Assembly: GCF_041690455.1 (NCBI RefSeq)
Contig: NZ_JAWLHI010000007.1
Span: 1,610 to 65,609 of the forward strand
Direction of reading: 5' to 3'
DNA length: 64,000 nt
DNA from: Marinobacter sp.
Lineage (GTDB): Bacteria > Pseudomonadota > Gammaproteobacteria > Pseudomonadales > Oleiphilaceae
The position numbers were made by a program, and so were the translations under genes. The notes below the pieces were generated by a model, which worked only from the letters and a program-made list of their open reading frames with translations, was not told the DNA's origin and ran no database searches. Of this stretch, positions 7,440 through 27,945 are shown in pieces. Within the stretch, counting starts at the first letter, position 1, and every line of letters starts with the position of its first letter.

Positions 7440-10208
7440 ATGTGCGCCGATAGTTGTTCCCGCATCGCTTCCGGTCTCCGCTTTACCGGCCTGATACTTC
7501 TCCTGACTGCTCTCGTTGGCTGTAAAACCGAGAAAGACCCGGATCAGCCAACCATCCTCGGGGCACCGCCGACCAACGCCTACCTGGGCGTGGAGTATTA
7601 CTACAACTGGGGCGCGTACGGGGGGGAAGGCATTCTCGATTACAGCCTGACCAACGCTCCGTCCTGGCTGGCGCTGGAGGACATCAGCAACAAGGCTCGC
7701 CAGGGTGTGATCATGTACGGCGTGCCCGGCCTGACCGGGGGCAGTCGGGGTGAGGCGGATCTCGGGAAGACCGAAGACATCAACCTGGTGACCACAGATG
7801 GCAGCCTGGCCGGTACTGCGCCGTTTGATATTGAAGTGCGATACAACCCCCTGGCTCTGGAGGCGGGTAACTTCACCGAGGGTGAGGTACCGGAACTTGC
7901 GACTCCGAGAGGGGAGCATTGCGCGGTGCCGGATCTGTCCGAGCCGGGAGAACATACCTTCACCATCAATACCTACGACGATTCCGGCGCGGTTGATGGC
8001 GAAAAGGAAGTCACCCTGCCTACCCGTCAGGTCGCCGTCAAGGTGACCCTCGACAAGCCCTCGGTGACCCGGGTTGGCGTCGCCTTTGAACTGAGCTCCC
8101 AATACGATCCCGGCATGTGTGATCCGTCGTTCACCGGCACCGCGCCTCACCAGCGTTGCGATTTCAGTGCTGCCAATGCCAGCGACGCCATCATCGGTAA
8201 GGACATTGTAGGCCTCGGCACCGGCTCTCCGGCGCCCGTGGATGAAAACGGCGATCCGCTCGGCTACCTCTCCTACGAAGCGGATGACAATGGCTATCTG
8301 ACCCGGGGAGTCGTCACCCTTGAGCCGGGAATCACCGAATGCTATATCCGCCTCGAAGTGGTGGAGGACAGTTTTGCCGAGCTTTCCGAGTCGGCACATC
8401 TGACCCTCACCGAGGTCCGCTCCGGCCTTGCCGGGCTTGGCCCTAACAACGGCGGGGTACAGGCCACCGTGACCATTGATGACAACGAACCGGTGGTGTC
8501 CCTGGAAACCCTGAACGGCGGGCTCAGGGACACCCTGAACGTGGGGGATGCCCGGGAATACCGTGCCAGGTTGACCGGCGAGCGGGAAGGAATCGTGCAG
8601 GCCCGCCTGATCCACTCCGAAAGTTCCACCGCGCGACTTGATAGCGAGTTTGTGATCGAGCAGCAGGAAGCCGGGCTCTGGGTGGAGAATCCAACCCTGA
8701 GTTTTCCGGCGGATCAGGATCAGGTCACCCTCCGTGTCCGTGTGCCTGCGGACAGCTACACCAACCCGGGTCTGGACGACCGTTTTATCCAGATGGCTCT
8801 GGACGAGGCCTACCAGGCCGGACGCGAGGGATTTGCACGGCCGGCGTCAGAGGATCTGCTGCGTATCAGCCTGAATGAACTGACAGCACCGATCGTTCTG
8901 CCGGCGGGCGGAGGTTTCCTGCCCACGGATATGGCCCTTGGTCACGACGGCCGGCTTTTCCTGGCCGGCTATGACAGTGCCGACGGCAACCGGGCCAAGG
9001 TCCGGATCTTTGACCAGAAAGGCAACCTGCTACAGGAGGCAGGCGTTACGCCGGAGGGTGTCAGTCTTGCGCCGTCGTCCCCGGTCATTGGTGTGGTGAA
9101 CAGGAAGGTTACCGAGAACAACACCAAGGTGGACCGGTATGAGTTCGTGGTTGCCTACAGCACTGACGAGAACATTCCGGGGGCAAATCGCGCGGAAGTA
9201 GATATGGGCCTTGAGGACGTCATTGCCTCCGTATTCTTGTTCAACGGTGATTTGAACGGTGGCGAGTACGTTCCTTACTGGACGCTACGCAGTGGCACCT
9301 CTGGTAACGACCGGACCCGGGATGCCGGGATCAATCCGGATTCCGGCTATGTGATCCTGTCCGGTGAAACCACCGGAACCTGGCCCGGACAAAGTTCGGC
9401 CGGTGGCGTAGACAGCTTCCTGCAACGGATTGATACTGTGCTGGACGGCGACACGCCGGTGCCCGAAGTCGCCTGGACCCGACAGGTGGGATCTGCCAGC
9501 GACGATGCCGTGGCGGGCAGTTCGGTGCTGTCCATGTCGCCCATGCTGTTCGGCTCGGCTGCAGGTTCCGTGGGTGGTGCCCAGGTGATCGGCGGGGAGG
9601 ATGCCTATTTCTATTCCTACGGCGGGGCGTCAACCACGCCGACCGTCTATCAGGTGGGAACTGCTGGTGATGAGTCGGTCACGGCCGGCCTGTTCAGTGG
9701 GAATCACCTCTGGCTGCTGGGCGCGAGTGATGGGGAGTACTCCGTCGCCACCGGCGAGGACGATGTTCAAACCCTGGTGCGTGAGCCGTTGTCCAGTCAG
9801 GCGGGCTTCCTGCTGTCCTATTCCCCGACCGGAGGCCTGAGCAGGGGGTTCACCTTGAACGACGCGGCGGACGCATCCAGTGAGTCTTTCCACGCCCTGA
9901 CCGGATTCGGTGGCGATATGGTGGCCGGAGGCGATACCACCGGCAATTTCACCGGAGATGCGGTTCCTTCATCCGGCCAGACCCAGGGCATCGTCAGCCG
10001 CATTTCGCTGGTCGAGCCGACCGCAACGGATGACAGCGAACCAAAGTTCCGCAACGAGTGGCGCTTCCAACTGACGACCGGAGAGACGTCTGTACAGCGA
10101 CTCGCCAATTACCGGGACGACGAAATCACGGCGTTGGTGCGTTCGGGGGACGACCGGATGATTACCCTGCTCAGTCCCGAGGGGCGGCTGCTGACGCCCC
10201 TGAACTGA
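7440..10208 (+). CDS. Large predicted lipoprotein with Ig-like, Calx-beta-like and beta-propeller-like repeats
   Basis: 922 aa ORF; lipobox LLTALVGC; Ig-like segment (PTILGAPPT..AYLGVEYYY..LTNAPSWL); C-terminal SBBP-like repeats (GGVDSFLQRID, WTRQVGSASDD, GGEDAYFY, QVGTAGDE). Start codon uncertain. Confidence 0.65.
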   Translation: MCADSCSRIASGLRFTGLILLLTALVGCKTEKDPDQPTILGAPPTNAYLGVEYYYNWGAYGGEGILDYSLTNAPSWLALEDISNKARQGVIMYGVPGLTGGSRGEADLGKTEDINLVTTDGSLAGTAPFDIEVRYNPLALEAGNFTEGEVPELATPRGEHCAVPDLSEPGEHTFTINTYDDSGAVDGEKEVTLPTRQVAVKVTLDKPSVTRVGVAFELSSQYDPGMCDPSFTGTAPHQRCDFSAANASDAIIGKDIVGLGTGSPAPVDENGDPLGYLSYEADDNGYLTRGVVTLEPGITECYIRLEVVEDSFAELSESAHLTLTEVRSGLAGLGPNNGGVQATVTIDDNEPVVSLETLNGGLRDTLNVGDAREYRARLTGEREGIVQARLIHSESSTARLDSEFVIEQQEAGLWVENPTLSFPADQDQVTLRVRVPADSYTNPGLDDRFIQMALDEAYQAGREGFARPASEDLLRISLNELTAPIVLPAGGGFLPTDMALGHDGRLFLAGYDSADGNRAKVRIFDQKGNLLQEAGVTPEGVSLAPSSPVIGVVNRKVTENNTKVDRYEFVVAYSTDENIPGANRAEVDMGLEDVIASVFLFNGDLNGGEYVPYWTLRSGTSGNDRTRDAGINPDSGYVILSGETTGTWPGQSSAGGVDSFLQRIDTVLDGDTPVPEVAWTRQVGSASDDAVAGSSVLSMSPMLFGSAAGSVGGAQVIGGEDAYFYSYGGASTTPTVYQVGTAGDESVTAGLFSGNHLWLLGASDGEYSVATGEDDVQTLVREPLSSQAGFLLSYSPTGGLSRGFTLNDAADASSESFHALTGFGGDMVAGGDTTGNFTGDAVPSSGQTQGIVSRISLVEPTATDDSEPKFRNEWRFQLTTGETSVQRLANYRDDEITALVRSGDDRMITLLSPEGRLLTPLN

Positions 10209-10212
10209 GGTG

Positions 10213-12090
10213 TCAGCCGGCCCGGCGCCGGCATATCCGGTCCGGCCGGACGCTGTGGGCGAGTGTCGCGGGCAGGCAGGCCGGTTGCCCGGTGAGCTGG
10301 TCCGCCACGTACTCGGCAAGAAGCGGCGCGTAGGTGAGCCCCTTGCTCCCCAGGCCGCTAAGCAGATAGACACCTTCAAGTGACTGCCCGTTGCAGTCTG
10401 CCATCATTCCGGCTACCGGCTGGTAATCGTGGGTGGTGCAGCGGAAGCCGACGCGTCCCTCGAAATCCCCGTTGCTTTCGTCTTCAGCAAACAAGCCCGG
10501 CAACATGTCGCCGAGCTGCTGGAGGTTCTCGGCGTTGGCCTCGCGGGTGACCGTGGGGTCGGCGCTGTGAAGGTCAAAGGTGGCCCCGGTCACGGCCAAG
10601 CCGTCCTGGCACGGATTAAGGTATTTCTGGCCACAGATAACCGCCTTGGGTGCCCGGATGGCTTCCTCGGGGAGGTGGGTTACCTGGCCCCGGATCGCCT
10701 TGAACCGATATTCACCCTTGAGCGGAATCAGTTCCGCCGTTTGGTGGCCTGCGGCGATCACCACACTCTCTGCGATGATGTCGGCGCCATTAAGGCTGGA
10801 CAGGTGCCATTTGCCGTTGCAGGGCATCAGCCGTTCCACCCGTGTGCCGAATCGGCAATCAATCAGGGCGTGACGGGCCAGCTCCCGGCAAAGGCTGCCG
10901 GGTGACAGCCAGCCATTATTGGGGAACCAGAGCCCACCGTTGGCGACGGAAGTACCGGTAAGTTCGGAGGCGGTGGCCGCGTCCACAGGGTACAGAAGCT
11001 CTTCGGGATACTGGTTGCGCTCCAGGAAACGAGCCTGCCGGTCCTGTTCCTGAGGATTCCACGCCATCTGTAGCAGGCCGGTCGTGTGCCAGAAGGAATC
11101 CCGGTAGGGTTCGTAGGCGCGCTGACTGAAGGTCAGGGCGGAGACGGCCAGTTCTGTCTGGGCGTTGAACTCGACGCCGAGCTTCACATACATTGCGCCC
11201 TGAAGATTTCCGGAGGCCGCGGCACCGGCAGTTTCTTCCGCATCAATGAGAGTGACCGCCACACCGCGACTGGCCAGATTCCGGGCCAGCAGGGTGCCAG
11301 CGATGCCCGCACCGATGATTGCCACGGTACCGGCAGGGGCAGGCGAATTGCTGGAAACGGTGCCAGGCAGCACCCCGGCGATCATGTCCCGCTTGCGTCC
11401 GTAGCCCGGTGTTTTGCGCATCTCGAAGCCTTCGTCCTCGAGCGCCCGGCGGATTCTGCCCACCGCGGTAAAGGTCGCCAGGGTCGTGCCCGGTTTACTG
11501 TGCTCGCGGATTAGCGCCATGGCCTGGTCCAGCCACATGTCGGGGTTCAGGGCCGGAGCAAAACCGTCCAGGAACCAGGCGTCGGCAGAGAATGACAGAG
11601 CCCCCCAGGCTTCCAGTACATCGCCAAAGTGCAGGGTCAGGCGCACCCGGCCTTCATCCAGTACCAGGCGGTGGGTACCCCGGACCAGGGACGGGTAACG
11701 CGCCAACAGTTCCGCAGCGAGCGGTGCCAGTTCGGGCCAGAGGTCCAGGGCGCGCTTGAGATCATCCCGTGTGAGTGGGTAGCGCTCGGCGGAGACGAAA
11801 TGCAGTACGGATCCGTTATCCGGCCGGTGCTCTTGCCAGGCTTGCCAGGCGGCAAGAAAATTGAGGCCGGTGCCGAAGCCGGTCTCCGCGATCACGAACG
11901 CACCTTGCGGAGGCACTACCTGGAAACGGTCGATCAGGTTGTTGTGGTCCAGAAAGACATAGCGGGTTTCTTCCAGGCCGTTATCGCGGCTGAAGTAGAC
12001 GTCCCCGAACCGGGCCGACTCCGGTATTCCATCCCGCCAGACGAGATCGGCGGGTTCGATTGCTGGCGGACGTACGGTGGATTCAGTCAT
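10213..12090 (-). CDS. mnmC: Bifunctional tRNA mnm5s2U34 biosynthesis protein MnmC
   Basis: N-terminal methyltransferase (FGDVYFS, ETGFGTGLNF, DAWFLDGFAP, GYGRKRDM) plus FAD oxidase domain (IIGAGIAG, ASGN, GLGSKG). Confidence 0.95.
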   Translation of the reverse strand: MTESTVRPPAIEPADLVWRDGIPESARFGDVYFSRDNGLEETRYVFLDHNNLIDRFQVVPPQGAFVIAETGFGTGLNFLAAWQAWQEHRPDNGSVLHFVSAERYPLTRDDLKRALDLWPELAPLAAELLARYPSLVRGTHRLVLDEGRVRLTLHFGDVLEAWGALSFSADAWFLDGFAPALNPDMWLDQAMALIREHSKPGTTLATFTAVGRIRRALEDEGFEMRKTPGYGRKRDMIAGVLPGTVSSNSPAPAGTVAIIGAGIAGTLLARNLASRGVAVTLIDAEETAGAAASGNLQGAMYVKLGVEFNAQTELAVSALTFSQRAYEPYRDSFWHTTGLLQMAWNPQEQDRQARFLERNQYPEELLYPVDAATASELTGTSVANGGLWFPNNGWLSPGSLCRELARHALIDCRFGTRVERLMPCNGKWHLSSLNGADIIAESVVIAAGHQTAELIPLKGEYRFKAIRGQVTHLPEEAIRAPKAVICGQKYLNPCQDGLAVTGATFDLHSADPTVTREANAENLQQLGDMLPGLFAEDESNGDFEGRVGFRCTTHDYQPVAGMMADCNGQSLEGVYLLSGLGSKGLTYAPLLAEYVADQLTGQPACLPATLAHSVRPDRICRRRAG

Positions 12091-19444: not shown

Positions 19445-20257
19445 ATGACCAGTTACCGTTTCAAACGTGCCGCATTACCTGTAGCCATTACCATCGCCTT
19501 GGGCATGGGTGTTGCCGGGTGCTCCGATTCGCAGAACCCGGCCGCAACACAGGGTCAGACAAGCAGTCAGTCGTCGAGTGCCAATCCCTGTGCGGCCGCG
19601 AATCCGTGCGCGGCAGCCAGCCAGAGTGGGGCGAACCCCTGCGCGGCGGCCAACCCCTGCGCCGCAGCCAATCCATCAGCAAACCCCTGTGCGGCAAACT
19701 CCGGCTCGGGTAGTGGCACAGCCCAGCCAATGCCCGCAGCCGTTCCCAGATCGACCGCGCAAAATCCTGACCGGGCGCTTCCTTACGCAATTGAAAGTGA
19801 CCGGACAGAGGCGCCTTTCGGCAGTGAAATGCCTTCCGTGGTCAAAAACTACAACAGGCCATCGCCGTTTATTGCCGCTGGCGGCCATGTGGAGAAAGGC
19901 GCAATGGCAGAACTGAAGGCCCAGGGCTTCAATACCGTGGTCAGTCTGCTCACCGAAGAGGAAGGTGTGGCGGAGGAAAAGGCGGAGGCACATGCCGCCG
20001 GCCTGAATTTCTATGGGCTTGGCGTTTCAACCAGCGCGCCAACCCGGGCTCAGGTGGAGGCATTCTCGAAGATCGCATCTTCGCCGGCGAACTATCCGAT
20101 TCTGGTGCACTGTGCCAGCAGTAACCGGGTAGGGGCGATGTGGGCCCTGTACCGGTTCCAGATGGGTGTGCCTGCGGAGATTGCCATTGAGGAAGGGCGG
20201 GCTGCCGGTCTGAAAACGAGCCGGGAAGGTGCTGTTCGGGAACTCATGGGCCTCTGA
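19445..20257 (+). CDS. Lipoprotein: ANPCAA-repeat linker plus DUF442/PTP-fold Cys sulfurtransferase domain
   Basis: Lipobox GVAGC (Cys26); five ANPCAA repeats; C-terminal GF.TVVSL..EEE..VHCASSNRVGAMW matches the DUF442/Blh-type HCxxxxR loop. Confidence 0.8.
   Translation: MTSYRFKRAALPVAITIALGMGVAGCSDSQNPAATQGQTSSQSSSANPCAAANPCAAASQSGANPCAAANPCAAANPSANPCAANSGSGSGTAQPMPAAVPRSTAQNPDRALPYAIESDRTEAPFGSEMPSVVKNYNRPSPFIAAGGHVEKGAMAELKAQGFNTVVSLLTEEEGVAEEKAEAHAAGLNFYGLGVSTSAPTRAQVEAFSKIASSPANYPILVHCASSNRVGAMWALYRFQMGVPAEIAIEEGRAAGLKTSREGAVRELMGL
19580..19696 (+). repeat. Intragenic 18-nt (ANPCAA) repeats, five copies plus a degenerate ANPS
   Basis: gccaatccctgtgcggcc, gcgaatccgtgcgcggca, gcgaacccctgcgcggcg, gccaacccctgcgccgca, gcaaacccctgtgcggca. 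Confidence 0.95.
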
Positions 20258-21290: not shown

Positions 21291-22058
21291 ATGTTCACCA
21301 AACATAATAACACCGGATTTTCCGATGCACTGATTTGCGAGGCGGAGGGGCTGGAGAGCCTTCGTTCAGCACTGGTGCAGGCGGGTGTCACGGATGTGCG
21401 GATTCCGGAGGTGGTGCGGGTCGATAATAGTGTGCTGGAGATCACCGGCATCGAGTCCGAACCCGCCACTGCCGAAACCCTTGCCATGCTGGGAGAGGGG
21501 CTGGCGCTGATGCACCGGCTGAAACAGGATCGCTACGGCTGGGGACGGGACAACTACATCGGACTGTCGCCCCAGCCCAATGGCTGGTCGGACTCCTGGG
21601 GGGAGTTCTTCGTTTCAGACCGCCTGGGCTATCAGGTGAGTCGAATCCAAAATCCGGAGATTCGTGTTGAGTTCGAGGCGGTACTCGAGCGCCACGGCGA
21701 GTCTCTGGCACGGTGGCTCGACGATACCTGCGAGCATCCGAGCCTTTTGCACGGCGACCTCTGGAGCGGCAACGCTCTGTTTGATCGGAACACCCCCTGG
21801 CTTATTGATCCGGCAGTATATTGCGGTGACCGGGAGGCAGATCTGGCAATGACCGAAATGTTCGGCGGCTTCGGCGAGGCGTTCTACGAGGCCTACGACC
21901 GGATGTACGCCCGATCCCCGGATTATCCCCGCAAGAGGGACATCTACAACCTGTACCACTATCTGAACCACTACAACCTGTTTGGCGGCGGTTACCTCGG
22001 TGGTTGTCAGCGCGGTTTCGAGACGGTTCGTGCGGTCGGCTCTCAGATGATGCCGTAA
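21291..22058 (+). CDS. Fructosamine kinase family protein
   Basis: LLHGDLWSGN, IDPA.YCGDREADLAMT.MFGGF, YNLYHYLNH. Confidence 0.9.
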   Translation: MFTKHNNTGFSDALICEAEGLESLRSALVQAGVTDVRIPEVVRVDNSVLEITGIESEPATAETLAMLGEGLALMHRLKQDRYGWGRDNYIGLSPQPNGWSDSWGEFFVSDRLGYQVSRIQNPEIRVEFEAVLERHGESLARWLDDTCEHPSLLHGDLWSGNALFDRNTPWLIDPAVYCGDREADLAMTEMFGGFGEAFYEAYDRMYARSPDYPRKRDIYNLYHYLNHYNLFGGGYLGGCQRGFETVRAVGSQMMP

Positions 22059-22990
22059 CTGCGTAACAGGAAGACGCCAGCGGTAACTGTAACGCTGGCC
22101 ATCAGGGTGGTCAGGGCAATGATATTGGCCGCCAGGCGGTCATTGCCACCGAGCGCCTTGACCATCACGAAACTGGCGGCGGCGGTCGGACTGGCGAAGA
22201 ACAGGAACATCAGTCCCAGCTCCGGCCCCCGGAAACCGGCCAGCCAGCCCGCAGCGGTGCACAGGGCCGGCAACACGATCATTTTCATGGCGCTGGAGCC
22301 GAAAGCGGTCTTGCTGTCGCTGCGAATGGAGCTCAGGGACACGGTGGCGCCAATGCACAACAGGGCCAGCGGAAGGGTCAGGGACGCAAAATAGTCGGCG
22401 CTAGTCATGACCCAGGTGGGTAATCCGATATTCAGCCAGGCAAAGGGGATAGCCACCACAACGGCGATAATCAGAGGGTTACGGATAATGTCATGGATGA
22501 TCTTGCGCCAGCTGGCGGACTGGCCGGGTTGGTAGGCGATCAGCACCACCACCGACAGTGCGTTGTAAGAGATGATCACCAGGCCGAGCAGGATACCGCC
22601 GGCGGATAACCCGAAATCACCATACAGGTTGGCCGCCAGCGCCAGGCCGACAATCCCGCAGTTGCCCCGGAAAGCCCCTTGCACGTAGACCCCGCGATCC
22701 TCTCTTCGCACCCGCCAGGCCGCCCACAGCCAGGTCAGACCGAACCCGCCAAGGGTGGCTAGCAGGTAAAACAGCAGCAGTTCCGGATTCAGGGCGGTAC
22801 TCAGGTCGGCGCGGATGATGCTCAGGAATACCAGCGTCGGCAGTGTCGCCTTGAATACCAGGGCAGAGGCGGTATTGATGAAGGGGGCATCGATCCAGCC
22901 GATCCGCCGCAGCCCGAGCCCGATAAAGACCATGGCAAATACCGGCAAGGTGGTTTCCAGTGTCTGGAGAAAGATGTCGATCAGGTTCAT
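22043..22990 (-). CDS. AEC (auxin efflux carrier) family transporter
   Basis: LPVFAMVFIG, F..TLP.L.F, RGNCGIVGLAL, NPLII, PTAAAS..M; ATG 22990. Confidence 0.9.
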   Translation of the reverse strand: MNLIDIFLQTLETTLPVFAMVFIGLGLRRIGWIDAPFINTASALVFKATLPTLVFLSIIRADLSTALNPELLLFYLLATLGGFGLTWLWAAWRVRREDRGVYVQGAFRGNCGIVGLALAANLYGDFGLSAGGILLGLVIISYNALSVVVLIAYQPGQSASWRKIIHDIIRNPLIIAVVVAIPFAWLNIGLPTWVMTSADYFASLTLPLALLCIGATVSLSSIRSDSKTAFGSSAMKMIVLPALCTAAGWLAGFRGPELGLMFLFFASPTAAASFVMVKALGGNDRLAANIIALTTLMASVTVTAGVFLLRSYGII

Positions 22991-23077
22991 TGCGGGGCCA
23001 TGGCAAATAGTGCAGGGGTAATTCGAGGCGGCAGTGTATAATTTCCTTGAGGTTTTCCCAAGGATTTCACCAACAAG

Positions 23078-25135
23078 ATGCCCGGACCCAACGGTTTTCA
23101 GCGGAGTTCTCTCAGGATCCAGCCCTGCGGCTGCCTGTTGGTATTGAGCAGAACGCTGGACCGTATAGTCCAGTGCAGCGCCAATGCGGAGTACTTCCTG
23201 CAGGTACCGGCCGAAACCCTGCTTGACCAGTCCCCGGAGGGAGTTTTCGGCGCCCGGGTGCTGGCCCGCATTCGCCGAGAACTGGCAGAGGACGATGTGC
23301 TCAGCGGGCCGGTTTCCATTCGTAAGGAGAACAAAGGCCGCCAGATCCGCCTCCAGGTGAATGCTTTTCGTTCCGGAGCCTGGGTGGTGGTCGAAATCGA
23401 ACCCATAACGGGCCTTGGAACAAGACGGATGACCGGAAGGGTCAACCGCTGGCTTGGCAAGCTGGCCAATGCCCGTAATCCCGACGATCTGATGGATATC
23501 CTGGTGGACGGCGTTCGTGACCTGGTCCGGTTTGACCGGGTGGTGGTGGCGCACTTTGACGAACAGGGCCATGGCGTCTTTCTGGCCGAGAGCAAGCGCA
23601 AGGGCGTTTCACCCTTGCGGGGTCAGCGTTTTTCCGCATCCGCGTATCCTCCGGCGCAACGTTCAAAAATGACCCGGCACCAGGTGCGGAGTATTCCGGA
23701 CCTCGAGGCCGGCCTGGTGCCGGTGCTGGTTTCCGGCAAGATGAACCGTGAACAACTGGCGGACGTCGATGCCAGCGGGACGGTACTCCGGGCACCGTCC
23801 CGGAGGCAGACCGCGTACCTGAATTATTTCAGGGCCCAGGCGCTGCTCTCTATCGCGATTGTCGGTCCCTCGGGCCTCTGGGGCCTGGTTACCTGCACGT
23901 CGGAAAAGCCGGTTCCCCTTGCGCCGACCCTGAGGGACGCGGCACGCACCCTGGTTCTGATGGCCACCCAGCGCCTGTTCCTGCTGAAATCCCGGATGGA
24001 GGCCCAGTTCTTACAGCGCGTTCACAAGTCCAGGGATTTTCTGGCAGCTGATATCACAGTCGGGCTTTCTCCGGCCAGGATGCTTGAGAAATACGCCCCC
24101 GACTGGCTGGCATTGTTCCGCGCCAGTGGCATGGCCTATGCCAACAGCGGTGATATTGCCGCGCTCGGAGAGGTCCCTCCCACTGCTTCGCTCGAACAAC
24201 TGGTCGCCAGGCTGAACGCCGAACAACAGGGTCGATCTCCCTGGGTGTCGGCCAGGCTGAAAGAGGAGCCGCTGGCCAGGGGGCTGGAACTCGGTGCTGC
24301 CTGTGGCCTGCTGGCGGTTCCGCTACCGGGGGAGCGGGTCACCAGCTGGTTTATGGTCTTCCGGGGAGAACACGGTCGAGGCATATATTGGGAGGGCCGT
24401 CCGGAGGTGGATATTCTGACCAGCGCACCGGGGGAGGAGGAAACCTTCCGCAAGGCCTTCGGTTCCTGGCTGGAAGCCGTGGAAAGCAGCAGCGAACCCT
24501 GGAAACGTGTGGAGCGTCTCGCCGCGGTGGATCTGGCAGAGGACATGGCGCTGCTGGCATCAATCAGCGAAATTACCCGGCTGAACGAGTTGCTCAAGGC
24601 CGAGCAGGCTGCGTTGGCGCAGGCCAACGAGCAACTCAGTCATGCTGCGAGCCATGACTCCCTGACCGGTCTCTGGAACCGTTACCGGACCGAATATGAA
24701 CTGGACCGGGAGCTGGCGAAAGCAAGGCGCCATGGCTTGCCGTTTTCAGTGCTGCTGCTGGATGTCGATCATTTCAAAAACATCAATGACTCCTGGGGCC
24801 ACGCGGCCGGTGACGAGGTGCTGCGGGAAGTTGCGCGGAAGGTCACCGATGTGCTGCGCCAGGAGGATCATCTCGGGCGCTGGGGTGGTGAGGAGTTTGT
24901 CATTCTGGCGACAGGCGCGGGGCGCGCCGATGGGGTGGCCTTGGCCGAACGGGTTCGACAGGCAGTGGCCGAGGTGGCAGTGCCTGGAGTGGAATCCGCC
25001 ATTACTGCCAGTATCGGTGTCGCCAGCTGGCGCCCGGAAGATAAGCGCAAGTCCATTATCCAGCGGGCAGACCGGGCCATGTATGCCGCCAAGAATGGCG
25101 GCCGTAACCGGGTAGAGACCGACGAGGGCCTGTGA
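23078..25135 (+). CDS. Phytochrome-like PAS-GAF-PHY sensor fused to a GGDEF diguanylate cyclase; bilin-binding residues degenerate
   Basis: IQPCG, FDRVVV..FDEQGHG, LWGLVTC and FR.E..W.G.P match phytochrome folds. HDSLTGLWNR, DVDHFK.IND.WGH..GD and RQED..RWGGEEF form an intact GGDEF domain with I-site. Confidence 0.85.
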   Translation: MPGPNGFQRSSLRIQPCGCLLVLSRTLDRIVQCSANAEYFLQVPAETLLDQSPEGVFGARVLARIRRELAEDDVLSGPVSIRKENKGRQIRLQVNAFRSGAWVVVEIEPITGLGTRRMTGRVNRWLGKLANARNPDDLMDILVDGVRDLVRFDRVVVAHFDEQGHGVFLAESKRKGVSPLRGQRFSASAYPPAQRSKMTRHQVRSIPDLEAGLVPVLVSGKMNREQLADVDASGTVLRAPSRRQTAYLNYFRAQALLSIAIVGPSGLWGLVTCTSEKPVPLAPTLRDAARTLVLMATQRLFLLKSRMEAQFLQRVHKSRDFLAADITVGLSPARMLEKYAPDWLALFRASGMAYANSGDIAALGEVPPTASLEQLVARLNAEQQGRSPWVSARLKEEPLARGLELGAACGLLAVPLPGERVTSWFMVFRGEHGRGIYWEGRPEVDILTSAPGEEETFRKAFGSWLEAVESSSEPWKRVERLAAVDLAEDMALLASISEITRLNELLKAEQAALAQANEQLSHAASHDSLTGLWNRYRTEYELDRELAKARRHGLPFSVLLLDVDHFKNINDSWGHAAGDEVLREVARKVTDVLRQEDHLGRWGGEEFVILATGAGRADGVALAERVRQAVAEVAVPGVESAITASIGVASWRPEDKRKSIIQRADRAMYAAKNGGRNRVETDEGL

Positions 25136-25153: not shown

Positions 25154-27487
25154 TCAGGCCTTCAGCTGATCGCCCACGGGCAGCCGGCGAATCCGCTTGC
25201 CAGTGGCGGCATGGATGGCGTTGCACAGCGCCGGGGCCACCGGGGGCAGGCCGGGCTCACCAACCCCACCCATGGGTTCGTCCTGGCGGTCCATCAGGTG
25301 GATATGGATTTCCCTGGGTGCGTCGGGCATCCGGGGCAACAGGTACGTATCGAAGTTGTCCTGTTGGGCAACACCATCCCTGAAGGTGACTTCGCTCATC
25401 AGGGCGATGCCGATGCCCATCACGCAGGCACCTTCGAGCTGGGAACGGATCCGCTCCGGATTGGCCTGCCGGCCGCAGTCAAAGGCGATGTCGGCCCGGT
25501 GGATGATCACGTTGCCCGTGTCATCGACTTCCACATCAAACACGATGGCCGTATAGGATACGAAGCTGTGATGGAAGGCCAGTCCCATGCCGCGGCCTTC
25601 CGGTAGCTCCTTACCCCAGCCGGCAGCCTCTGTGGCTTTCTCGACCACGGCACGCATGCGTCCGGTATCAATGGGATACATCTCCGGGTCTTCACCGTAG
25701 TTCCAGCCATCACCCACCGTCAGGTTATGGATTTCCCGCCCCGGGCCAAGCAGTTCGAGTACGTAATCCCGGTGGTCCCTGCCTGCGGCGACCGAGACCT
25801 CGTGGGCAAAACTCTGGATGGCCCAGGCATGGGGAAGGTTGTACACCGAACGGAACCAGCCGATTCTCACATGGGCCGGTGCCGGCGGGTTCTCCAGCCG
25901 GATGGCGGGAATACTGAATGGCATGGTGTTAAAACCCATGCCGAGTTCGAATTCGCCCTTGTGTTTCGGGTCCGGGGCGAACAGGGAGCCGATGCTGGGA
26001 GACAGGGTGCGATGGCGCCATGCCAGGGCCTTTCCGTCACTGTCGAGCCCCGCTTCGAGATGATCCACTGACACCGCGTGGAAATAGGCGTGGTGAATAT
26101 CGTCTTCCCGTGTCCATTGCAGTCGCACGGGTCGCCCCTCAAAGGCCTGAGCCACGCGAGCGGCTTCCGCGGCATAATCCGGCTTGGATTTGCGGCCGAA
26201 ACCACCGCCGAGCAGGGTGACATTGACCCTTACCTTTTCCCGATCCAGACCCAGTTGACCAGCGACGGTGTCGCGGGTGGCACGGGGATTCTGGACAGGG
26301 GCCCAGACTTCCGCCTCGCCGTTTTTCACCAGGACGGTCGCCACCATCGGTTCCATGGGGGATTGGGCCAGATGGGGCATGTAGTAGGTCGCAGAGACCC
26401 TCTTGCTTGCCTGCTTCAGGGCGCCTTCGACGTCGCCGCGGCCCCGGATAACCCGGCCGGGCGATTGGGCACGTTCCTCGAGCGTCTGGCGATAGGACTC
26501 GGAGGTGTAGCTGGCGTTGTCTCCGGCGGGGCCGTTGTCCCATTGGATCTTCAGCTTCTTGCGGCCCTCGATGGCTGCCCAGGTATTGGTGGCGACCACC
26601 GCCACACCACCGAGCGGACTGAAACCGGCCGGTTGTCCGGTACCCTGGATTTCGAGGGTTTTCTCCACGCCCGGCACTTTCAGGGTTTCCGAGTCATCGT
26701 AGCTTTTGACTTTGCCGCCATAAACCGGAGGGCGGGCAATGACCGCATATAGTGGGTTTTCCACCTCGACATCGGCACCGAAGATCGCCTTGCCGGTAAC
26801 GATGTCTTCGCCGTCAATGGCCTTGGGGTAGGCGGACTCCAGCCTGCCGTTGATGTAGCCGGATTCGCGGCCGATATAACGCAGTTCGTCATCGGTTTTC
26901 AGTACCAGGTCGTTGCGGCCTGGTACTTCCAGTTCACGGGCGGCTTCCGCAAGCTCGCCAAAGCCCAGTTCCCGGCCGGACGGCGTATGAATGATCTTGT
27001 GAATGTCCGTTTGTACCTCGTGCAAGGGCACCGACCACTGGTTGGCGGCGGCCTGTTCCAGCATCAGCCGGGCGGCGGCCGCGGCACGACGCATGGGATC
27101 GTACCAGTGGCGCATACTGCGGGAACCGTCGGTATTCTGGTTGCCGTATTTTTCCTGGTTGGCCTCCGCCTGACGGACCTTCACCCGGTCCCAGTCTGCA
27201 CCCAGTTCATCGGCGGCCAGTAACACCATGCTGGTACGGATACCCTGGCCCATTTCGGCCCGGTTATTGACGACGGTGACCGTCCCGTCGGAATCAATAT
27301 GAATGAAGACGTTAGGATCATCCACCCAGCCGCCAGGCATGGCGCCGGCGCCGAACTGGGCCTTTTCATTGGCCAGGGGCATATCCCAGCGCGCGGCCAG
27401 CACGAGGGCCGAGCCACCGGCCAGTCCCATGAGAAAGCGGCGACGGCTCACATTCGCCAGCAGGAGTTTGTCGTTGGATCTGTTCAT
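25154..27487 (-). CDS. Xanthine dehydrogenase-family molybdopterin subunit (IorB-like)
   Basis: SRRRFL twin-arginine-like leader; [28 protein letters not shown] motifs. Confidence 0.9.
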
Positions 27488-27945
27488 GCCTGGTCCTCCT
27501 TGCCGGCCGCCCGCTCAATGGCAGCGAGAATCCGGTTGTAGGTACCGCAGCGGCACAGGTTACCTGCCATGGCATCGACGATCTCGCTGGTATCCGGGTT
27601 GGGCGTTTTCTTCAGAAGGGCGGTGGCGTTCATGATCTGGCCACCCTGGCAGTAGCCACACTGGGCGACACCGAGGTCCAGCCAGGCCTGCTGGACCTTG
27701 CTGCCCACCAGATCGTCGGCCATGGCTTCGATGGTTGTGATCTCGCCTTTAGCGGCAGACACCGGTGTCACACAGGAACGGATGGCCGTGCCGTTCAGGT
27801 GCACGGTACAGGCACCACACTGGGACACACCGCAGCCGAACTTGGTGCCTTTCATGCCGACCACATCCCTGATGGCCCAGATCAGCGGCATGTTGTCCGG
27901 GACGTCCAGTTCGTGTTGCTCGCCGTTGATGTTGAGCGTAACCAT
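27484..27945 (-). CDS. (2Fe-2S) subunit (IorA-like)
   Basis: GTKFGCGVSQCGAC, SCV, QCGYCQGGQ, NLCRCGTY. Confidence 0.93.
   Translation of the reverse strand: MVTLNINGEQHELDVPDNMPLIWAIRDVVGMKGTKFGCGVSQCGACTVHLNGTAIRSCVTPVSAAKGEITTIEAMADDLVGSKVQQAWLDLGVAQCGYCQGGQIMNATALLKKTPNPDTSEIVDAMAGNLCRCGTYNRILAAIERAAGKEDQA

What the first reader, a model, noticed from the sequence alone, without database searches (positions are those of the whole stretch)
23078..25135. Phytochrome-derived diguanylate cyclase with all bilin-binding residues replaced
Seen: the PAS-GAF-PHY layout is recognisable, but the N-terminal C-x-x-EPI attachment Cys is absent (an in-frame TGA at 23048 blocks extension). PASDIP reads SASAYP (about residues 186-191), SPIH reads SRRQ, CHH reads CTS, and PRxSF reads FRKAF. 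The GGEEF site and RxxD I-site are intact, and no heme oxygenase gene is adjacent. Inference: a repurposed light-independent sensor (other ligand or redox via the new CGC/C residues) controlling c-di-GMP.
Basis: partly seen in the sequence, partly recalled or inferred. Interest (0 to 1): 0.62.

Follow-up and report, generated by a model that had tools for sequence, protein, structure and literature searches.

The report
Light-blind phytochrome-derived diguanylate cyclase
A Marinobacter gene encodes a c-di-GMP synthase whose sensor descends from a red-light phytochrome, has lost the residues and the partner enzyme needed to carry its pigment, and is still kept intact by selection, so it probably now regulates the enzyme without light.

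Summary
ORF 23078-25135 (+, 685 aa) is PAS-GAF-PHY-GGDEF. Its closest solved relative is IsPadC, the biliverdin phytochrome-activated cyclase (E 4e-97; model TM 0.70-0.76).

- **Lost:** the N-terminal Cys, DIP (AYP), His260 (Q), His290 (T) and PRxSF (FRKAF). These are about 100% conserved in 102 canonical relatives.
- **Overstated:** "all residues replaced". Only 12 of 20 pocket positions changed, and both propionate-anchoring Arg remain.
- **Heme oxygenase:** none in the 64-kb window or near 11 other Cys-less loci. All 6 canonical loci checked have one.
- **Not decaying:** the sensor module has dN/dS 0.06-0.09, the same as the cyclase domain and neighbouring genes. It keeps the PadC "+14" coiled-coil linker with two overlapping heptad registers, GGEEF and RxxD.
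- **Clade:** it is the most degenerate tip of a robust Marinobacter + Halomonadaceae clade.
- **Prior notice:** one member, HmPadC+14, was mentioned in 2022 as "missing all essential motifs" but could not be purified.

Best reading: a light-independent, still switch-competent cyclase with an unknown input. The Cys residues also occur in canonical relatives, and the old pocket is no more conserved than the rest of GAF. I rate it a new variant of a known kind, of moderate interest.

The parts
23078..25135 (+). Whole gene: 685-aa PAS-GAF-PHY-coiled coil-GGDEF protein (Cys-less PadC-like diguanylate cyclase)
   Evidence: ORF list and sequence; Pfam; IsPadC 5LLW/6ET7 E 4e-97 over residues 13-679; AF2 pLDDT 87, Foldseek TM 0.70-0.76 to IsPadC
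23048..23050 (+). In-frame TGA that closes the reading frame 30 nt upstream of the ATG; no alternative start in between
   Evidence: Read directly from the sequence; orthologues P0001-P0006 start at the same position
23037..23042 (+). Perfect TATAAT hexamer 36 nt upstream of the ATG, preceded by TG. A possible -10 box, unverified
   Evidence: Read from the sequence. The consensus scan did not call a promoter here because there is no -35 match
23114..23404 (+). PAS_2 domain (residues 13-109), includes IQPCGC (14-19; nt 23117-23134)
   Evidence: Pfam PF08446 E 6.8e-13; dN/dS 0.04-0.07 against the closest orthologues
23480..23965 (+). GAF domain (residues 135-296) with the remodelled former bilin pocket
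   Evidence: Pfam PF01590 18.8 bits, below the gathering score; pocket table; dN/dS 0.08-0.09
23633..23650 (+). SASAYP in place of PASDIP (Asp207->A189, Ile208->Y190, Pro209 kept)
   Evidence: D and I are 102/102 in canonical sequences
23798..23809 (+). SRRQ in place of SP(I/V)H (Pro258->R242, Val/Ile259->R243, His260->Q244). R242 and Q244 are 16/16 in Marinobacter
23894..23902 (+). CTS in place of CH(H) (His290->T274)
24029..24550 (+). PHY domain (residues 318-491)
   Evidence: Pfam PF00360 E 1.2e-23; dN/dS 0.05-0.11
24386..24475 (+). PHY tongue (residues 437-466): WEG for W(G/A)G, FRKAF (nt 24446-24460) for PRxSF, WLE kept
   Evidence: AF2 pLDDT <50 for 441-462, whereas a canonical relative modelled with the same alignment gives a beta-hairpin at pLDDT about 70
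24533..24658 (+). Coiled-coil sensor-effector linker, L486 to D527 = 42 residues ('+14' class), with two overlapping heptad registers
   Evidence: Counted as in PMC9587094; continuous helix 477-525 in the model; same length throughout the clade
24647..25111 (+). GGDEF domain (residues 524-678) with RxxD I-site (RQED, nt 24857-24868) and GGEEF (nt 24884-24898)
   Evidence: Pfam PF00990 164.8 bits over the full-length model; TIGR00254 167 bits; catalytic motifs invariant in the clade
22043..22990 (-). Neighbour only: divergently transcribed AEC/Mem_trans transporter. It shows that the place a bphO gene occupies in canonical loci is absent here
   Evidence: Pfam PF03547; synteny with L081, L082, L085

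Best explanation
The gene encodes a cytoplasmic diguanylate cyclase that descends from a biliverdin phytochrome-activated cyclase (PadC) and no longer works as a bilin photoreceptor.

Shown:
- The PadC architecture and fold are present.
- The attachment Cys, DIP, His260, His290 and PRxSF are lost.
- The bphO partner gene is lost.
- Purifying selection on the PAS-GAF-PHY module is as strong as on the catalytic domain.
- The 42-residue (+14) coiled-coil linker is preserved with two overlapping heptad registers.
- GGEEF and the RxxD I-site are preserved.

Inferred mechanism:
- The protein is a parallel dimer like IsPadC.
- The chromophore-free PAS-GAF-PHY module acts as the dimerisation and allosteric unit.
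- The state of that unit, set by the remodelled GAF pocket and tongue contact rather than by bilin isomerisation, fixes or shifts the register of the coiled coil. The register determines whether the two GGDEF domains meet productively.
- c-di-GMP feeds back through the RxxD site.

Input: because the two-register linker is kept, I think it is still a switch that answers to some non-light cue. That cue is unknown. If there is none, the module simply sets a constitutive activity level.

Sub-probabilities: not a bilin photoreceptor about 0.9; functional, selected cyclase about 0.85; still a signal-responsive switch rather than a fixed scaffold about 0.55.
For: Homology and fold:
- IsPadC E 4e-97 over 667 residues.
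- AF2 pLDDT 87 and Foldseek TM 0.70-0.76 to 5LLW/6ET7.

Loss of bilin residues:
- Pairwise alignment and a 102-sequence comparison.
- The NCBIfam BphP equivalog scores 134 bits against a cut-off of 1040.

Loss of heme oxygenase:
- PF01126 or tblastn-positive HO sits next to all 6 canonical PadC loci examined (L004, L005, L006, L010, L086, L087).
- None is found in the window or in L001-3, L081-85, L088, L089.

Selection:
- PSM omega is 0.060, 0.090 and 0.088 at dS about 0.41-0.43 for the three closest pairs.
- GGDEF omega is 0.069-0.090.
- Ten neighbouring genes have omega 0.008-0.13.
- The ORF is intact in all 16 Marinobacter clusters at 56-96% identity.

Transmission gear:
- The linker is 42 residues = +14 and has the same length across the clade.
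- Registers at offsets 3 and 6 are hydrophobic (8/11 and 6/11), the same two offsets as in IsPadC.
- Linker omega is 0.02-0.10.

Catalysis:
- The full-length GGDEF model scores 164.8 bits.
- DxLT, DxDxFKxxND, RxxD, GGEEF and KxGRN are invariant in the clade.

Literature:
- Canonical PadCs with 7n linkers are strongly inhibited until the sensor switches (PMC9587094).
- Apo-IsPadC is unstable (PMC6433076).
- So a stable bilin-free descendant must have re-adapted its sensor.
Against: - No biochemical data exist for any member. The one homologue that was tried (HmPadC+14) expressed too poorly to purify.
- Both propionate-anchoring Arg (R204, R238), plus S241, Y247, S258 and F185, are retained. Some carboxylate-bearing ligand, even a tetrapyrrole held non-covalently, is therefore not excluded.
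- The old pocket is not significantly more conserved than the rest of GAF, so there is no positive sign of where an input would act.
- No conserved operon partner points to a cue.
- The tongue is modelled with very low confidence, and it is degenerate or shortened in the Halomonadaceae relatives. Three of those relatives appear to be pseudogenes. This fits a module that may be only a scaffold.
- dN/dS is pairwise Nei-Gojobori only.
- The dimer and the register switch are inferred by homology, not modelled.
Confidence: 0.65

Rival explanations
1. The former bilin pocket has been re-lined to bind a different, probably anionic, small molecule. Ligand binding replaces light as the trigger of the tongue and coiled-coil switch, making this a chemoreceptor phytochrome.
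For: - In the window protein the 20 pocket positions gain +3 net charge (D207A, P258R, V259R) while both original Arg are kept. Side-chain volume changes by only about -30 A^3, so the cavity is not obviously filled.
- R242, Q244, P240 and L256 are 16/16 in Marinobacter, and Y190 and F251 are 15/16.
- The two-register linker is kept.
- GAF is under strong purifying selection.
Against: - Pocket positions are not significantly more conserved than the GAF average (p about 0.07-0.09; about 0.3 for the changed set).
- Charge and volume changes are inconsistent across the wider Cys-less clade (-1 to +3; -119 to +167 A^3).
- No metabolic or transport gene is consistently linked.
- No coordinates were available to measure a cavity.
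Confidence: 0.25
2. One reading: a thiol or redox (or metal) sensor that uses the Cys of IQPCGC and other cysteines.
For: C17 and C19 are 15/16 and C33 is 13/16 in Marinobacter. The CGC combination is specific to this genus-level clade.
Against: - C19 is present in 4/19 canonical PadCs and 8/10 other Cys-less forms.
- C17 also occurs in motif-intact relatives, and in only 4/9 Halomonadaceae-type proteins.
- C273 and C409 are ancestral.
- The motif lies at the start of the first PAS strand. From the canonical fold (established knowledge, not measured here) that is outside the chromophore pocket.
Confidence: 0.1
3. It still holds a bilin or another tetrapyrrole non-covalently and remains some kind of photoreceptor or tetrapyrrole sensor.
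For: R204 (R222), R238 (R254), S241, Y247, S258 and F185 are kept. The two Arg are 16/16 in Marinobacter and nearly universal in all Cys-less forms. Early-branching Cys-less relatives such as P0039 still have DIP, H260 and H290.
Against: - There is no Cys at either attachment position.
- D207A, H260Q, H290T, Y176A and Y216M remove the residues that protonate and tune the chromophore. I208Y, P258R and V259R project into the site.
- No heme oxygenase lies in 64 kb or near any Cys-less locus.
- The PRxSF/Asp207 contact is gone.
Confidence: 0.06
4. The sensory region is a decaying relic, or the whole gene is on its way to becoming a pseudogene, and is drifting neutrally.
For: Three Halomonadaceae homologues are interrupted: an in-frame stop in L007 and two frameshifts each in L008 and L009. 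The GAF Pfam score is below threshold.
Against: - In the window's lineage, omega for PAS, GAF and PHY is 0.04-0.11 at unsaturated dS. That equals the catalytic domain and the neighbouring genes.
- The ORF is intact and syntenic across Marinobacter species down to 56% identity.
- The replaced residues are themselves fixed.
Confidence: 0.03

Closest known systems
IsPadC, phytochrome-activated diguanylyl cyclase of Idiomarina sp. A28L (PDB 5LLW, 5LLX, 6ET7)
   Same: Same PAS-GAF-PHY-coiled coil-GGDEF architecture and fold (E 4e-97; about 31% identity; TM 0.70-0.76). Both have GGEEF and RxxD. Both have a heptad-compatible linker with two overlapping registers at the same offsets.
   Different: - IsPadC has Cys17, DIP, SPLH, CHH and PRKSF and binds biliverdin. 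The window protein has none of these motifs intact.
- The window protein's linker is one heptad longer (42 against 35).
- The window gene has no adjacent heme oxygenase.
- Its tongue is not modelled as a hairpin.
HmPadC+14 of Halomonas meridiana (WP_159340624; Boehm et al. 2022, PMC9587094)
   Same: [quoted passage not shown] The window protein has the same properties. Halomonadaceae-type proteins are the sister group of the Marinobacter clade (95/100 bootstrap).
   Different: - HmPadC+14 itself was not retrieved here, so identity to it was not measured.
- Halomonadaceae-type relatives keep Asp207 (DFP) and His290 and have a degenerate or shortened tongue.
- The Marinobacter proteins have gone further in the pocket (AYP/DYP, RRQ, CT) but keep a full-length tongue.
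- HmPadC+14 was never purified or assayed.
Canonical Marinobacter PadCs (MpPadC+2 of M. persicus, MsPadC+2 of Marinobacter sp. T13-3; PMC9587094)
   Same: Same genus and same domain architecture.
   Different: They bind biliverdin, photoconvert and belong to the +2 linker family. The window protein is in the +14 family and is bilin-motif-less, so it is not a decayed copy of that lineage.
Closest motif-intact relatives found here (P0019, P0032, P0038; also P0022 and P0024 of Haliea sp. E1-2-M8)
   Same: 35-43% identity in the sensor, the same +14 linker in P0019, P0022, P0024 and P0038, and very similar linker sequence.
   Different: They keep C-x-x-EP(V/I), DIP, SPVH and PRxSF. P0022 and P0024 have bphO immediately upstream. 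Haliea sp. E1-2-M8 carries both a canonical copy and a Cys-less copy, P0066.

Membership tests
PadC (phytochrome-activated diguanylate cyclase) as defined in PMC9587094 | Conserved biliverdin-binding Cys in the N-terminal segment (C17 of IsPadC) | tested here: not met
   There is no Cys in residues 1-16. The aligned position is about G3. Upstream extension is blocked by TGA 23048-50. Longer Marinobacter homologues also lack it.
PadC (phytochrome-activated diguanylate cyclase) as defined in PMC9587094 | DIP motif in the GAF pocket | tested here: not met
   A189-Y190-P191. D and I are 102/102 in canonical sequences.
PadC (phytochrome-activated diguanylate cyclase) as defined in PMC9587094 | [quoted passage not shown] | tested here: not met
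   FRKAF at 457-461. P, R, S and F are each 102/102 in canonical sequences.
PadC (phytochrome-activated diguanylate cyclase) as defined in PMC9587094 | GGDEF/GGEEF motif | tested here: met
   GGEEF at 603-607. PF00990 scores 164.8 bits over the full model.
PadC (phytochrome-activated diguanylate cyclase) as defined in PMC9587094 | PAS-GAF-PHY-linker-GGDEF architecture, homologous to IsPadC, with a linker length in one of the observed classes | tested here: met
   E 4e-97 and TM 0.70-0.76 to IsPadC. The linker is 42 = +14.
PadC (phytochrome-activated diguanylate cyclase) as defined in PMC9587094 | Biliverdin binding and red/far-red regulation of cyclase activity | not testable with these tools
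   This needs protein expression, spectroscopy and an enzyme assay.
Bacteriophytochrome photosensory module (BphP) | Chromophore-tuning residues Asp207, His260, His290, Tyr176 and Tyr216 (DrBphP numbering, from memory) | tested here: not met
   They read A189, Q244, T274, A158 and M198. The NCBIfam BphP equivalog scores 134 bits against a cut-off of 1040.
Bacteriophytochrome photosensory module (BphP) | Linked heme oxygenase (bphO). Typical of the family, not strictly defining | tested here: not met
   No HO in the 64-kb window (tblastn E<=1, two seeds) or in syntenic loci. HO was present at 6/6 canonical PadC loci.
Catalytically competent GGDEF diguanylate cyclase with product inhibition | GG(D/E)EF active site, metal and substrate residues, RxxD I-site five residues upstream | tested here: met
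   RQED-HLGRW-GGEEF is present. DxLT, DxDxFKxxND and KxGRN are invariant in the clade. Enzyme activity itself was not tested.
Cys-less, motif-less PadC-like clade (HmPadC+14 type) | PadC homology with loss of Cys, DIP and PRxSF, retention of GGEEF and a +14 linker | tested here: met
   Motif tables. Marinobacter + Halomonadaceae-type monophyly is 95/100 and the Marinobacter clade is 100/100. Linker length is 42.

The most novel reading that the evidence does not exclude
A whole clade of former phytochromes in marine and halophilic Gammaproteobacteria (Marinobacter, Halomonadaceae, Methylophaga, Haliea) has turned the bilin pocket into a binding site for a different, probably anionic, metabolite. 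It still uses the phytochrome tongue and two-register coiled coil to switch a diguanylate cyclase. That would be a chemically gated 'dark phytochrome'.
Probability: 0.25. Interest if true: 0.75.

Novelty: new variant of a known kind. Interest (0 to 1): 0.5.

Why it matters
Phytochromes are treated as obligate bilin photoreceptors, and surveys of PadCs filter out sequences that lack the Cys, DIP and PRxSF motifs.

This work shows that such sequences are not scattered wrecks:
- They form a robust clade.
- They consistently lack the heme-oxygenase partner.
- In Marinobacter they are under purifying selection over the whole sensor.
- They keep the register-switching linker intact.

If the module still switches, it offers a natural experiment on two questions. 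The first is what the phytochrome tongue and spine machinery does without a chromophore. The second is how an apo-stable PAS-GAF-PHY fold is built, given that apo-IsPadC is unstable.

There are also two practical points:
- It could serve as a scaffold for non-optical, ligand-gated c-di-GMP tools.
- Genome annotators should not infer 'red-light sensing' in Marinobacter or Halomonas from PAS_2/PHY domain hits alone.

If it is only a fixed dimerisation scaffold, it is an ordinary case of sensor-domain degeneration.

Tried and rejected
1. **Shared synteny as proof of bphO deletion.** Haliea has Mem_trans(-)|bphO|padC and the window has Mem_trans(-)|padC-like. The two transporters are not orthologous (23% identity, E 0.13), so this is a coincidence.
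2. **Genome-contig scan with the clade alignment.** It was swamped by the GRWGGEEF pattern. It gave only 10 full-length relatives and no Marinobacter locus. Marinobacter DNA was fetched by exact-protein look-ups instead.
3. **Exact look-ups.** The window protein and P0021 are not on record.
4. **Plasmid search.** No match. The gene sits in a conserved chromosomal neighbourhood.
5. **Expression or TSS evidence.** Only metagenomes holding at most 17% of the words were found, with no isolate RNA-seq, so nothing can be said about transcription.
6. **Promoter and terminator scan.** Nothing was called in the 87-nt spacer. A perfect TATAAT at 23037-23042 is visible by eye only.
7. **Is the old pocket a conservation hot spot?** It is not significant, so I did not adopt the new-ligand reading as the main explanation.
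8. **Simple 'pocket filled by bulky side chains' idea.** Net volume change is only -30 A^3 in the window protein and varies in sign between lineages, so this was not adopted.
9. **Single origin of all Cys-less forms.** Bootstrap support is only 48/100, and P0052 is a separate loss, so a single origin is not claimed.
10. **Literature.** Four full-text searches found no characterisation of a bilin-less PadC or phytochrome. The only mention is the HmPadC+14 remark in PMC9587094.
Full report
**1. What is in the sequence.**

ORF 23078..25135 on the + strand encodes 685 aa. The triplet at 23048-23050 is an in-frame TGA, and there is no ATG, GTG or TTG between it and the ATG at 23078. On the other strand a 315-aa AEC/Mem_trans transporter gene begins at 22990. 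The spacer is therefore only 87 nt. It holds a perfect TATAAT at 23037-23042, but the promoter scan did not call it because there is no -35 match.

Pfam finds PAS_2 (13-109), a sub-threshold GAF (135-296; 18.8 bits against a cut-off of 22.4), PHY (318-491) and a full-length GGDEF (524-678; 164.8 bits). NCBIfam's BphP equivalog scores 134 bits against a cut-off of 1040, while TIGR00254 GGDEF scores 167 bits.

The best solved relative by far is IsPadC, the biliverdin phytochrome-activated diguanylyl cyclase of Idiomarina sp. A28L. PDB entries 5LLW and 6ET7 match at E 4e-97, with query residues 13-679 aligned to 29-682. An AlphaFold2 model has mean pLDDT 87, and Foldseek places it on IsPadC at TM 0.70-0.76 over about 680 columns.

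**2. Check of the observation.**

I checked each motif in the pairwise alignment with IsPadC. I also checked it in a MAFFT alignment with 176 relatives, including 19 motif-intact PadCs and 83 motif-intact BphPs.
- PASDIP is SASAYP at 186-191.
- SP(I/V)H is SRRQ at 241-244.
- CH(H) is CTS at 273-275.
- PRxSF is FRKAF at 457-461.
- W(G/A)G is WEG.
- There is no Cys before C17.
- The position of the Cph1-type GAF Cys is R243.

RQED (RxxD) and GGEEF are intact. In the canonical set, D207, I208, P209, R222, R254, Y263 and each fixed letter of PRxSF are 102/102, and H260 is 100/102. The combination seen here is therefore not chance variation of a working photoreceptor. DrBphP numbering is used from memory.

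The title's 'all bilin-binding residues replaced' is too strong. Of 20 pocket positions, 12 changed:

| DrBphP residue | Window protein |
|---|---|
| Y176 | A |
| P204 | S |
| D207 | A |
| I208 | Y |
| Y216 | M |
| V256 | P |
| P258 | R |
| V259 | R |
| H260 | Q |
| M267 | F |
| S272 | L |
| H290 | T |

The other 8 are kept, including both Arg that anchor the propionates (R204 and R238 here).

**3. It is one tip of a clade, and the clade has been glimpsed before.**

The word-indexed search returned the following:
- Marinobacter proteins at 96-56% identity, including Marinobacter sp. DUT-1, M. pelagius and M. lipolyticus.
- Halomonas and Billgrantia proteins at 45-37%.
- Motif-intact PadCs at 41-34% (P0019, P0022, P0024).
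- Ordinary BphP histidine kinases below 30%.

The exhaustive search of 50%-identity representatives gave 4354 hits. Among the best 75 hits plus the first-search proteins, about 35 lack the Cys. Named sources include Halomonadaceae bacterium T82-2, Modicisalibacter luteus, Methylophaga sp. and Haliea sp. E1-2-M8.

A neighbour-joining tree of the sensor module puts the Cys-less proteins inside the PadCs, next to P0019, P0032 and P0038. The losses look stepwise:
- Cys and PRxSF are missing in all of them.
- DIP, His260 and then His290 disappear toward the Marinobacter tip.
- The Marinobacter tip is the most degenerate.

Bootstrap support is 100/100 for the Marinobacter clade. It is 95/100 for Marinobacter plus the Halomonadaceae-type proteins. 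It is only 48/100 for all Cys-less forms together, and P0052 is a separate loss. I therefore do not claim a single origin for all of them.

Boehm et al. 2022 (PMC9587094) define PadCs by the N-terminal Cys, DIP, PRxSF and GGDEF/GGEEF. They mention one outlier, HmPadC+14 of Halomonas meridiana (WP_159340624, 670 aa, linker 42). [quoted passage not shown] Four full-text searches found nothing further.

**4. Heme oxygenase.**

Canonical PadC loci carry a PF01126 gene:
- Immediately upstream in L086 (Haliea) and L087.
- By tblastn in L004 (Oceanimonas), L006 (Thioalkalivibrio) and L010.
- 3 kb downstream in L005.

The same two BphO queries find nothing at E<=1 in the whole 64-kb window or in L001-L003, L007-L009 and L081-L085. 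Pfam-annotated neighbourhoods show none in L081-L085, L088 or L089. That is 6 of 6 canonical loci against 0 of 11 intact Cys-less loci. The Cys-less set includes the Methylophaga-like P0039, which still has DIP, His260 and His290.

The caveat is that only two seeds were used, so a very divergent or non-PF01126 heme-degrading enzyme elsewhere in the genome would be missed.

**5. Is the sensor drifting?**

I fetched orthologous DNA from five Marinobacter sources (L081-L085) and computed Nei-Gojobori dN/dS per domain.

| Comparison | Region | dN/dS | dS |
|---|---|---|---|
| Window vs L084 (96% aa) | PAS | 0.037 | |
| Window vs L084 | GAF | 0.094 | |
| Window vs L084 | PHY | 0.046 | |
| Window vs L084 | linker | 0.021 | |
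| Window vs L084 | GGDEF | 0.090 | |
| Window vs L084 | PSM (all three sensor domains) | 0.060 | 0.41 |
| Window vs L081 (93% aa) | PSM | 0.090 | |
| Window vs L081 | GGDEF | 0.080 | |
| L084 vs L081 | PSM | 0.088 | |

Ten neighbouring genes compared between the window and L081 give 0.008-0.13, and the gene of interest gives 0.086. The sensor is therefore under purifying selection as strong as on the catalytic domain, and the 'neutral drift' refutation condition is not met in this lineage.

The picture differs in parts of the Halomonadaceae. The homologue in Halomonas olivaria TYRC17 has an in-frame stop. Those in Vreelandella lionensis and V. azerica have two frameshifts each. These are either real pseudogenes or assembly errors.

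**6. The transmission gear is intact.**

I counted the linker as in PMC9587094, from the residue aligned to I495 of IsPadC to the D of DxLT, inclusive. It runs L486-D527 and is 42 residues, the '+14' class. This is the same as HmPadC+14 and as the nearest canonical relatives P0019, P0022, P0024 and P0038, and it is constant across the Marinobacter and Halomonadaceae-type proteins.

Two overlapping heptad registers have hydrophobic or Asn cores: offset 3 has 8/11 and offset 6 has 6/11. The same two offsets are the best in IsPadC, each at 6/9. In the PadC literature, two overlapping registers are what is thought to allow register switching. PadCs with 7n linkers are efficiently inhibited until the sensor switches.

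The model shows one continuous helix from 477 to 525. The tongue keeps W438, G440, R458, F461 and W464-x-E466 but is modelled at pLDDT below 50 (441-462), with a short helix at 455-461. As a control I modelled the canonical relative P0022 with the very same 28-sequence alignment. Its tongue came out as a beta-hairpin at pLDDT about 70. This is weak, model-level evidence that the tongue no longer docks in the canonical Pr manner. That fits the loss of the Asp207 partner and of the PRxSF Pro and Ser.

**7. What replaced the pocket, and what that does and does not say.**

Within 16 Marinobacter sequences the new residues are largely fixed:
- P240, R242, Q244 and L256 are 16/16.
- Y190 and F251 are 15/16.
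- R243 is 13/16.

In the window protein the 20 pocket positions gain +3 net charge and change side-chain volume by only about -30 A^3. That would suit an anionic ligand in a persisting cavity.

Three results count against reading much into this:
- The pocket positions are not significantly more conserved than the rest of GAF (p about 0.07-0.09 for all 20; about 0.3 for the 12 changed).
- The charge and volume changes differ in sign among lineages (-1 to +3; -119 to +167 A^3).
- No gene is consistently linked in Marinobacter.

The Marinobacter neighbourhood is a conserved chromosomal stretch between flagellar and chemotaxis genes (flgA, flgM, flgN, cheV-like, cheR) and uvrY/gacA-like-uvrC-pgsA. 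The immediate neighbours vary.

Clade-specific invariant residues outside the pocket cluster in the last PAS strands and the PAS-GAF connector: R88, Q93, G114, R116, R117, G120 and W125. I could not interpret them.

**8. How it most likely works.**

Shown:
- Homology and fold.
- Loss of the pigment apparatus and of bphO.
- Purifying selection on every domain.
- A preserved two-register +14 linker.
- Preserved catalytic and I-site motifs.

Inferred: the protein is a parallel dimer like IsPadC. Its chromophore-free PAS-GAF-PHY module is the allosteric and dimerisation unit that sets the coiled-coil register, and with it the productive encounter of the GGDEF domains. c-di-GMP feeds back through RxxD.

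Apo-IsPadC is unstable (PMC6433076). The lineage must therefore have re-adapted the sensor to be stable without pigment, which fits the fixed replacement residues.

Probabilities:

| Claim | Probability |
|---|---|
| Not a bilin photoreceptor | about 0.9 |
| A functional, selected cyclase | about 0.85 |
| Still a signal-responsive switch rather than a fixed scaffold | about 0.55 |
| New ligand in the old pocket | about 0.25 |
| Thiol or redox sensing | about 0.1 |
| Residual tetrapyrrole binding | about 0.06 |
| Decay | about 0.03 |

**9. Comparison, membership and novelty.**

The protein works like, and descends from, a PadC. By the published definition it is not a PadC, because three of four defining motifs were tested and not met. 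It belongs with the HmPadC+14-type outlier.

As far as the searchable literature shows, four things are new here:
- These proteins form a robust, taxonomically coherent clade.
- Loss of the motifs goes with loss of bphO.
- The Marinobacter branch is under strong purifying selection across the sensor.
- The register-switch linker is retained.

I rate it a new variant of a known kind, with interest 0.5. It is a good, testable case of a photoreceptor module that has been re-used without its chromophore. The phenomenon of degenerate sensor domains is familiar, however, and no new input has been identified.

Noticed in passing
window 25154-27945 (- strand): A molybdopterin-binding oxidoreductase large subunit (777 aa, MoCoBD_1/2) and a [2Fe-2S] small subunit (153 aa) sit between the PadC-like gene and azlD. 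The pair is present in the window, L084 and L085. It is absent at the same place in Marinobacter sp. DUT-1 (L081) and M. pelagius (L082), so this is an insertion/deletion polymorphism directly downstream of the gene.
   Followed up: partly
window 19445-20257 (+): A 270-aa protein has a signal peptide and lipobox-like N-terminus. It then carries about 5 tandem copies of an 18-nt unit (GCCAACCCCTGCGCGGCA, nt 19580-19671) encoding Cys-containing ANPCAA repeats. Its C-terminus is a DSP-PTPase/BLH_phosphatase-like domain (PF22741, PF04273). In syntenic loci it follows two Sulf_transp genes.
   Followed up: partly
window 22043-23572 (- strand): The 509-aa ORF listed on the minus strand is an over-extension. 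The real gene is the 315-aa AEC/Mem_trans transporter at 22043-22990, with 97% identity to L081's 315-aa gene. The upstream part merely runs antisense through the 5' end of the PadC-like gene.
   Followed up: yes
L007 (Halomonas olivaria TYRC17), L008 (Vreelandella lionensis RHS90), L009 (Vreelandella azerica TBZ9), each about 10000-12000: The Cys-less PadC-like gene is interrupted: an in-frame stop in L007 and two frameshifts each in L008 and L009. These are either genuine pseudogenes, meaning the gene is being lost in some Halomonadaceae, or assembly errors.
   Followed up: partly
L086 (Haliea sp. E1-2-M8) and protein P0066: The same Haliea strain encodes a canonical bphO-PadC operon (P0024) and a separate Cys-less, motif-poor PadC-like protein (P0066). 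This suggests that at least some bilin-less forms coexist with a working photoreceptor copy.
   Followed up: no
L086 8098-10260, L087 2704-5361, L088 8042-11872: GGDEF-EAL genes with PAS or GAF sensors lie directly beside PadC or PadC-like genes. This holds in two canonical loci and in the Cys-less Billgrantia azerbaijanica locus, but not in Marinobacter. It may be a conserved cyclase/phosphodiesterase pairing.
   Followed up: no
window 23339-23452 (residues 88-125 of the protein): Residues invariant in the Marinobacter + Halomonadaceae-type clade but rare in canonical phytochromes cluster in the last PAS strands and the PAS-GAF connector: R88, Q93, G114, R116, R117, G120 and W125. No explanation so far.
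   Followed up: no
L011, L012, L013 (Halomonas sp., Vreelandella titanicae BH1, Halomonas sp. UBA3074): Further Halomonadaceae relatives match only from about residue 240-290 onward (part of GAF, PHY, GGDEF) at 30-32% identity. They may be a shorter, PAS-less derivative family.
   Followed up: no
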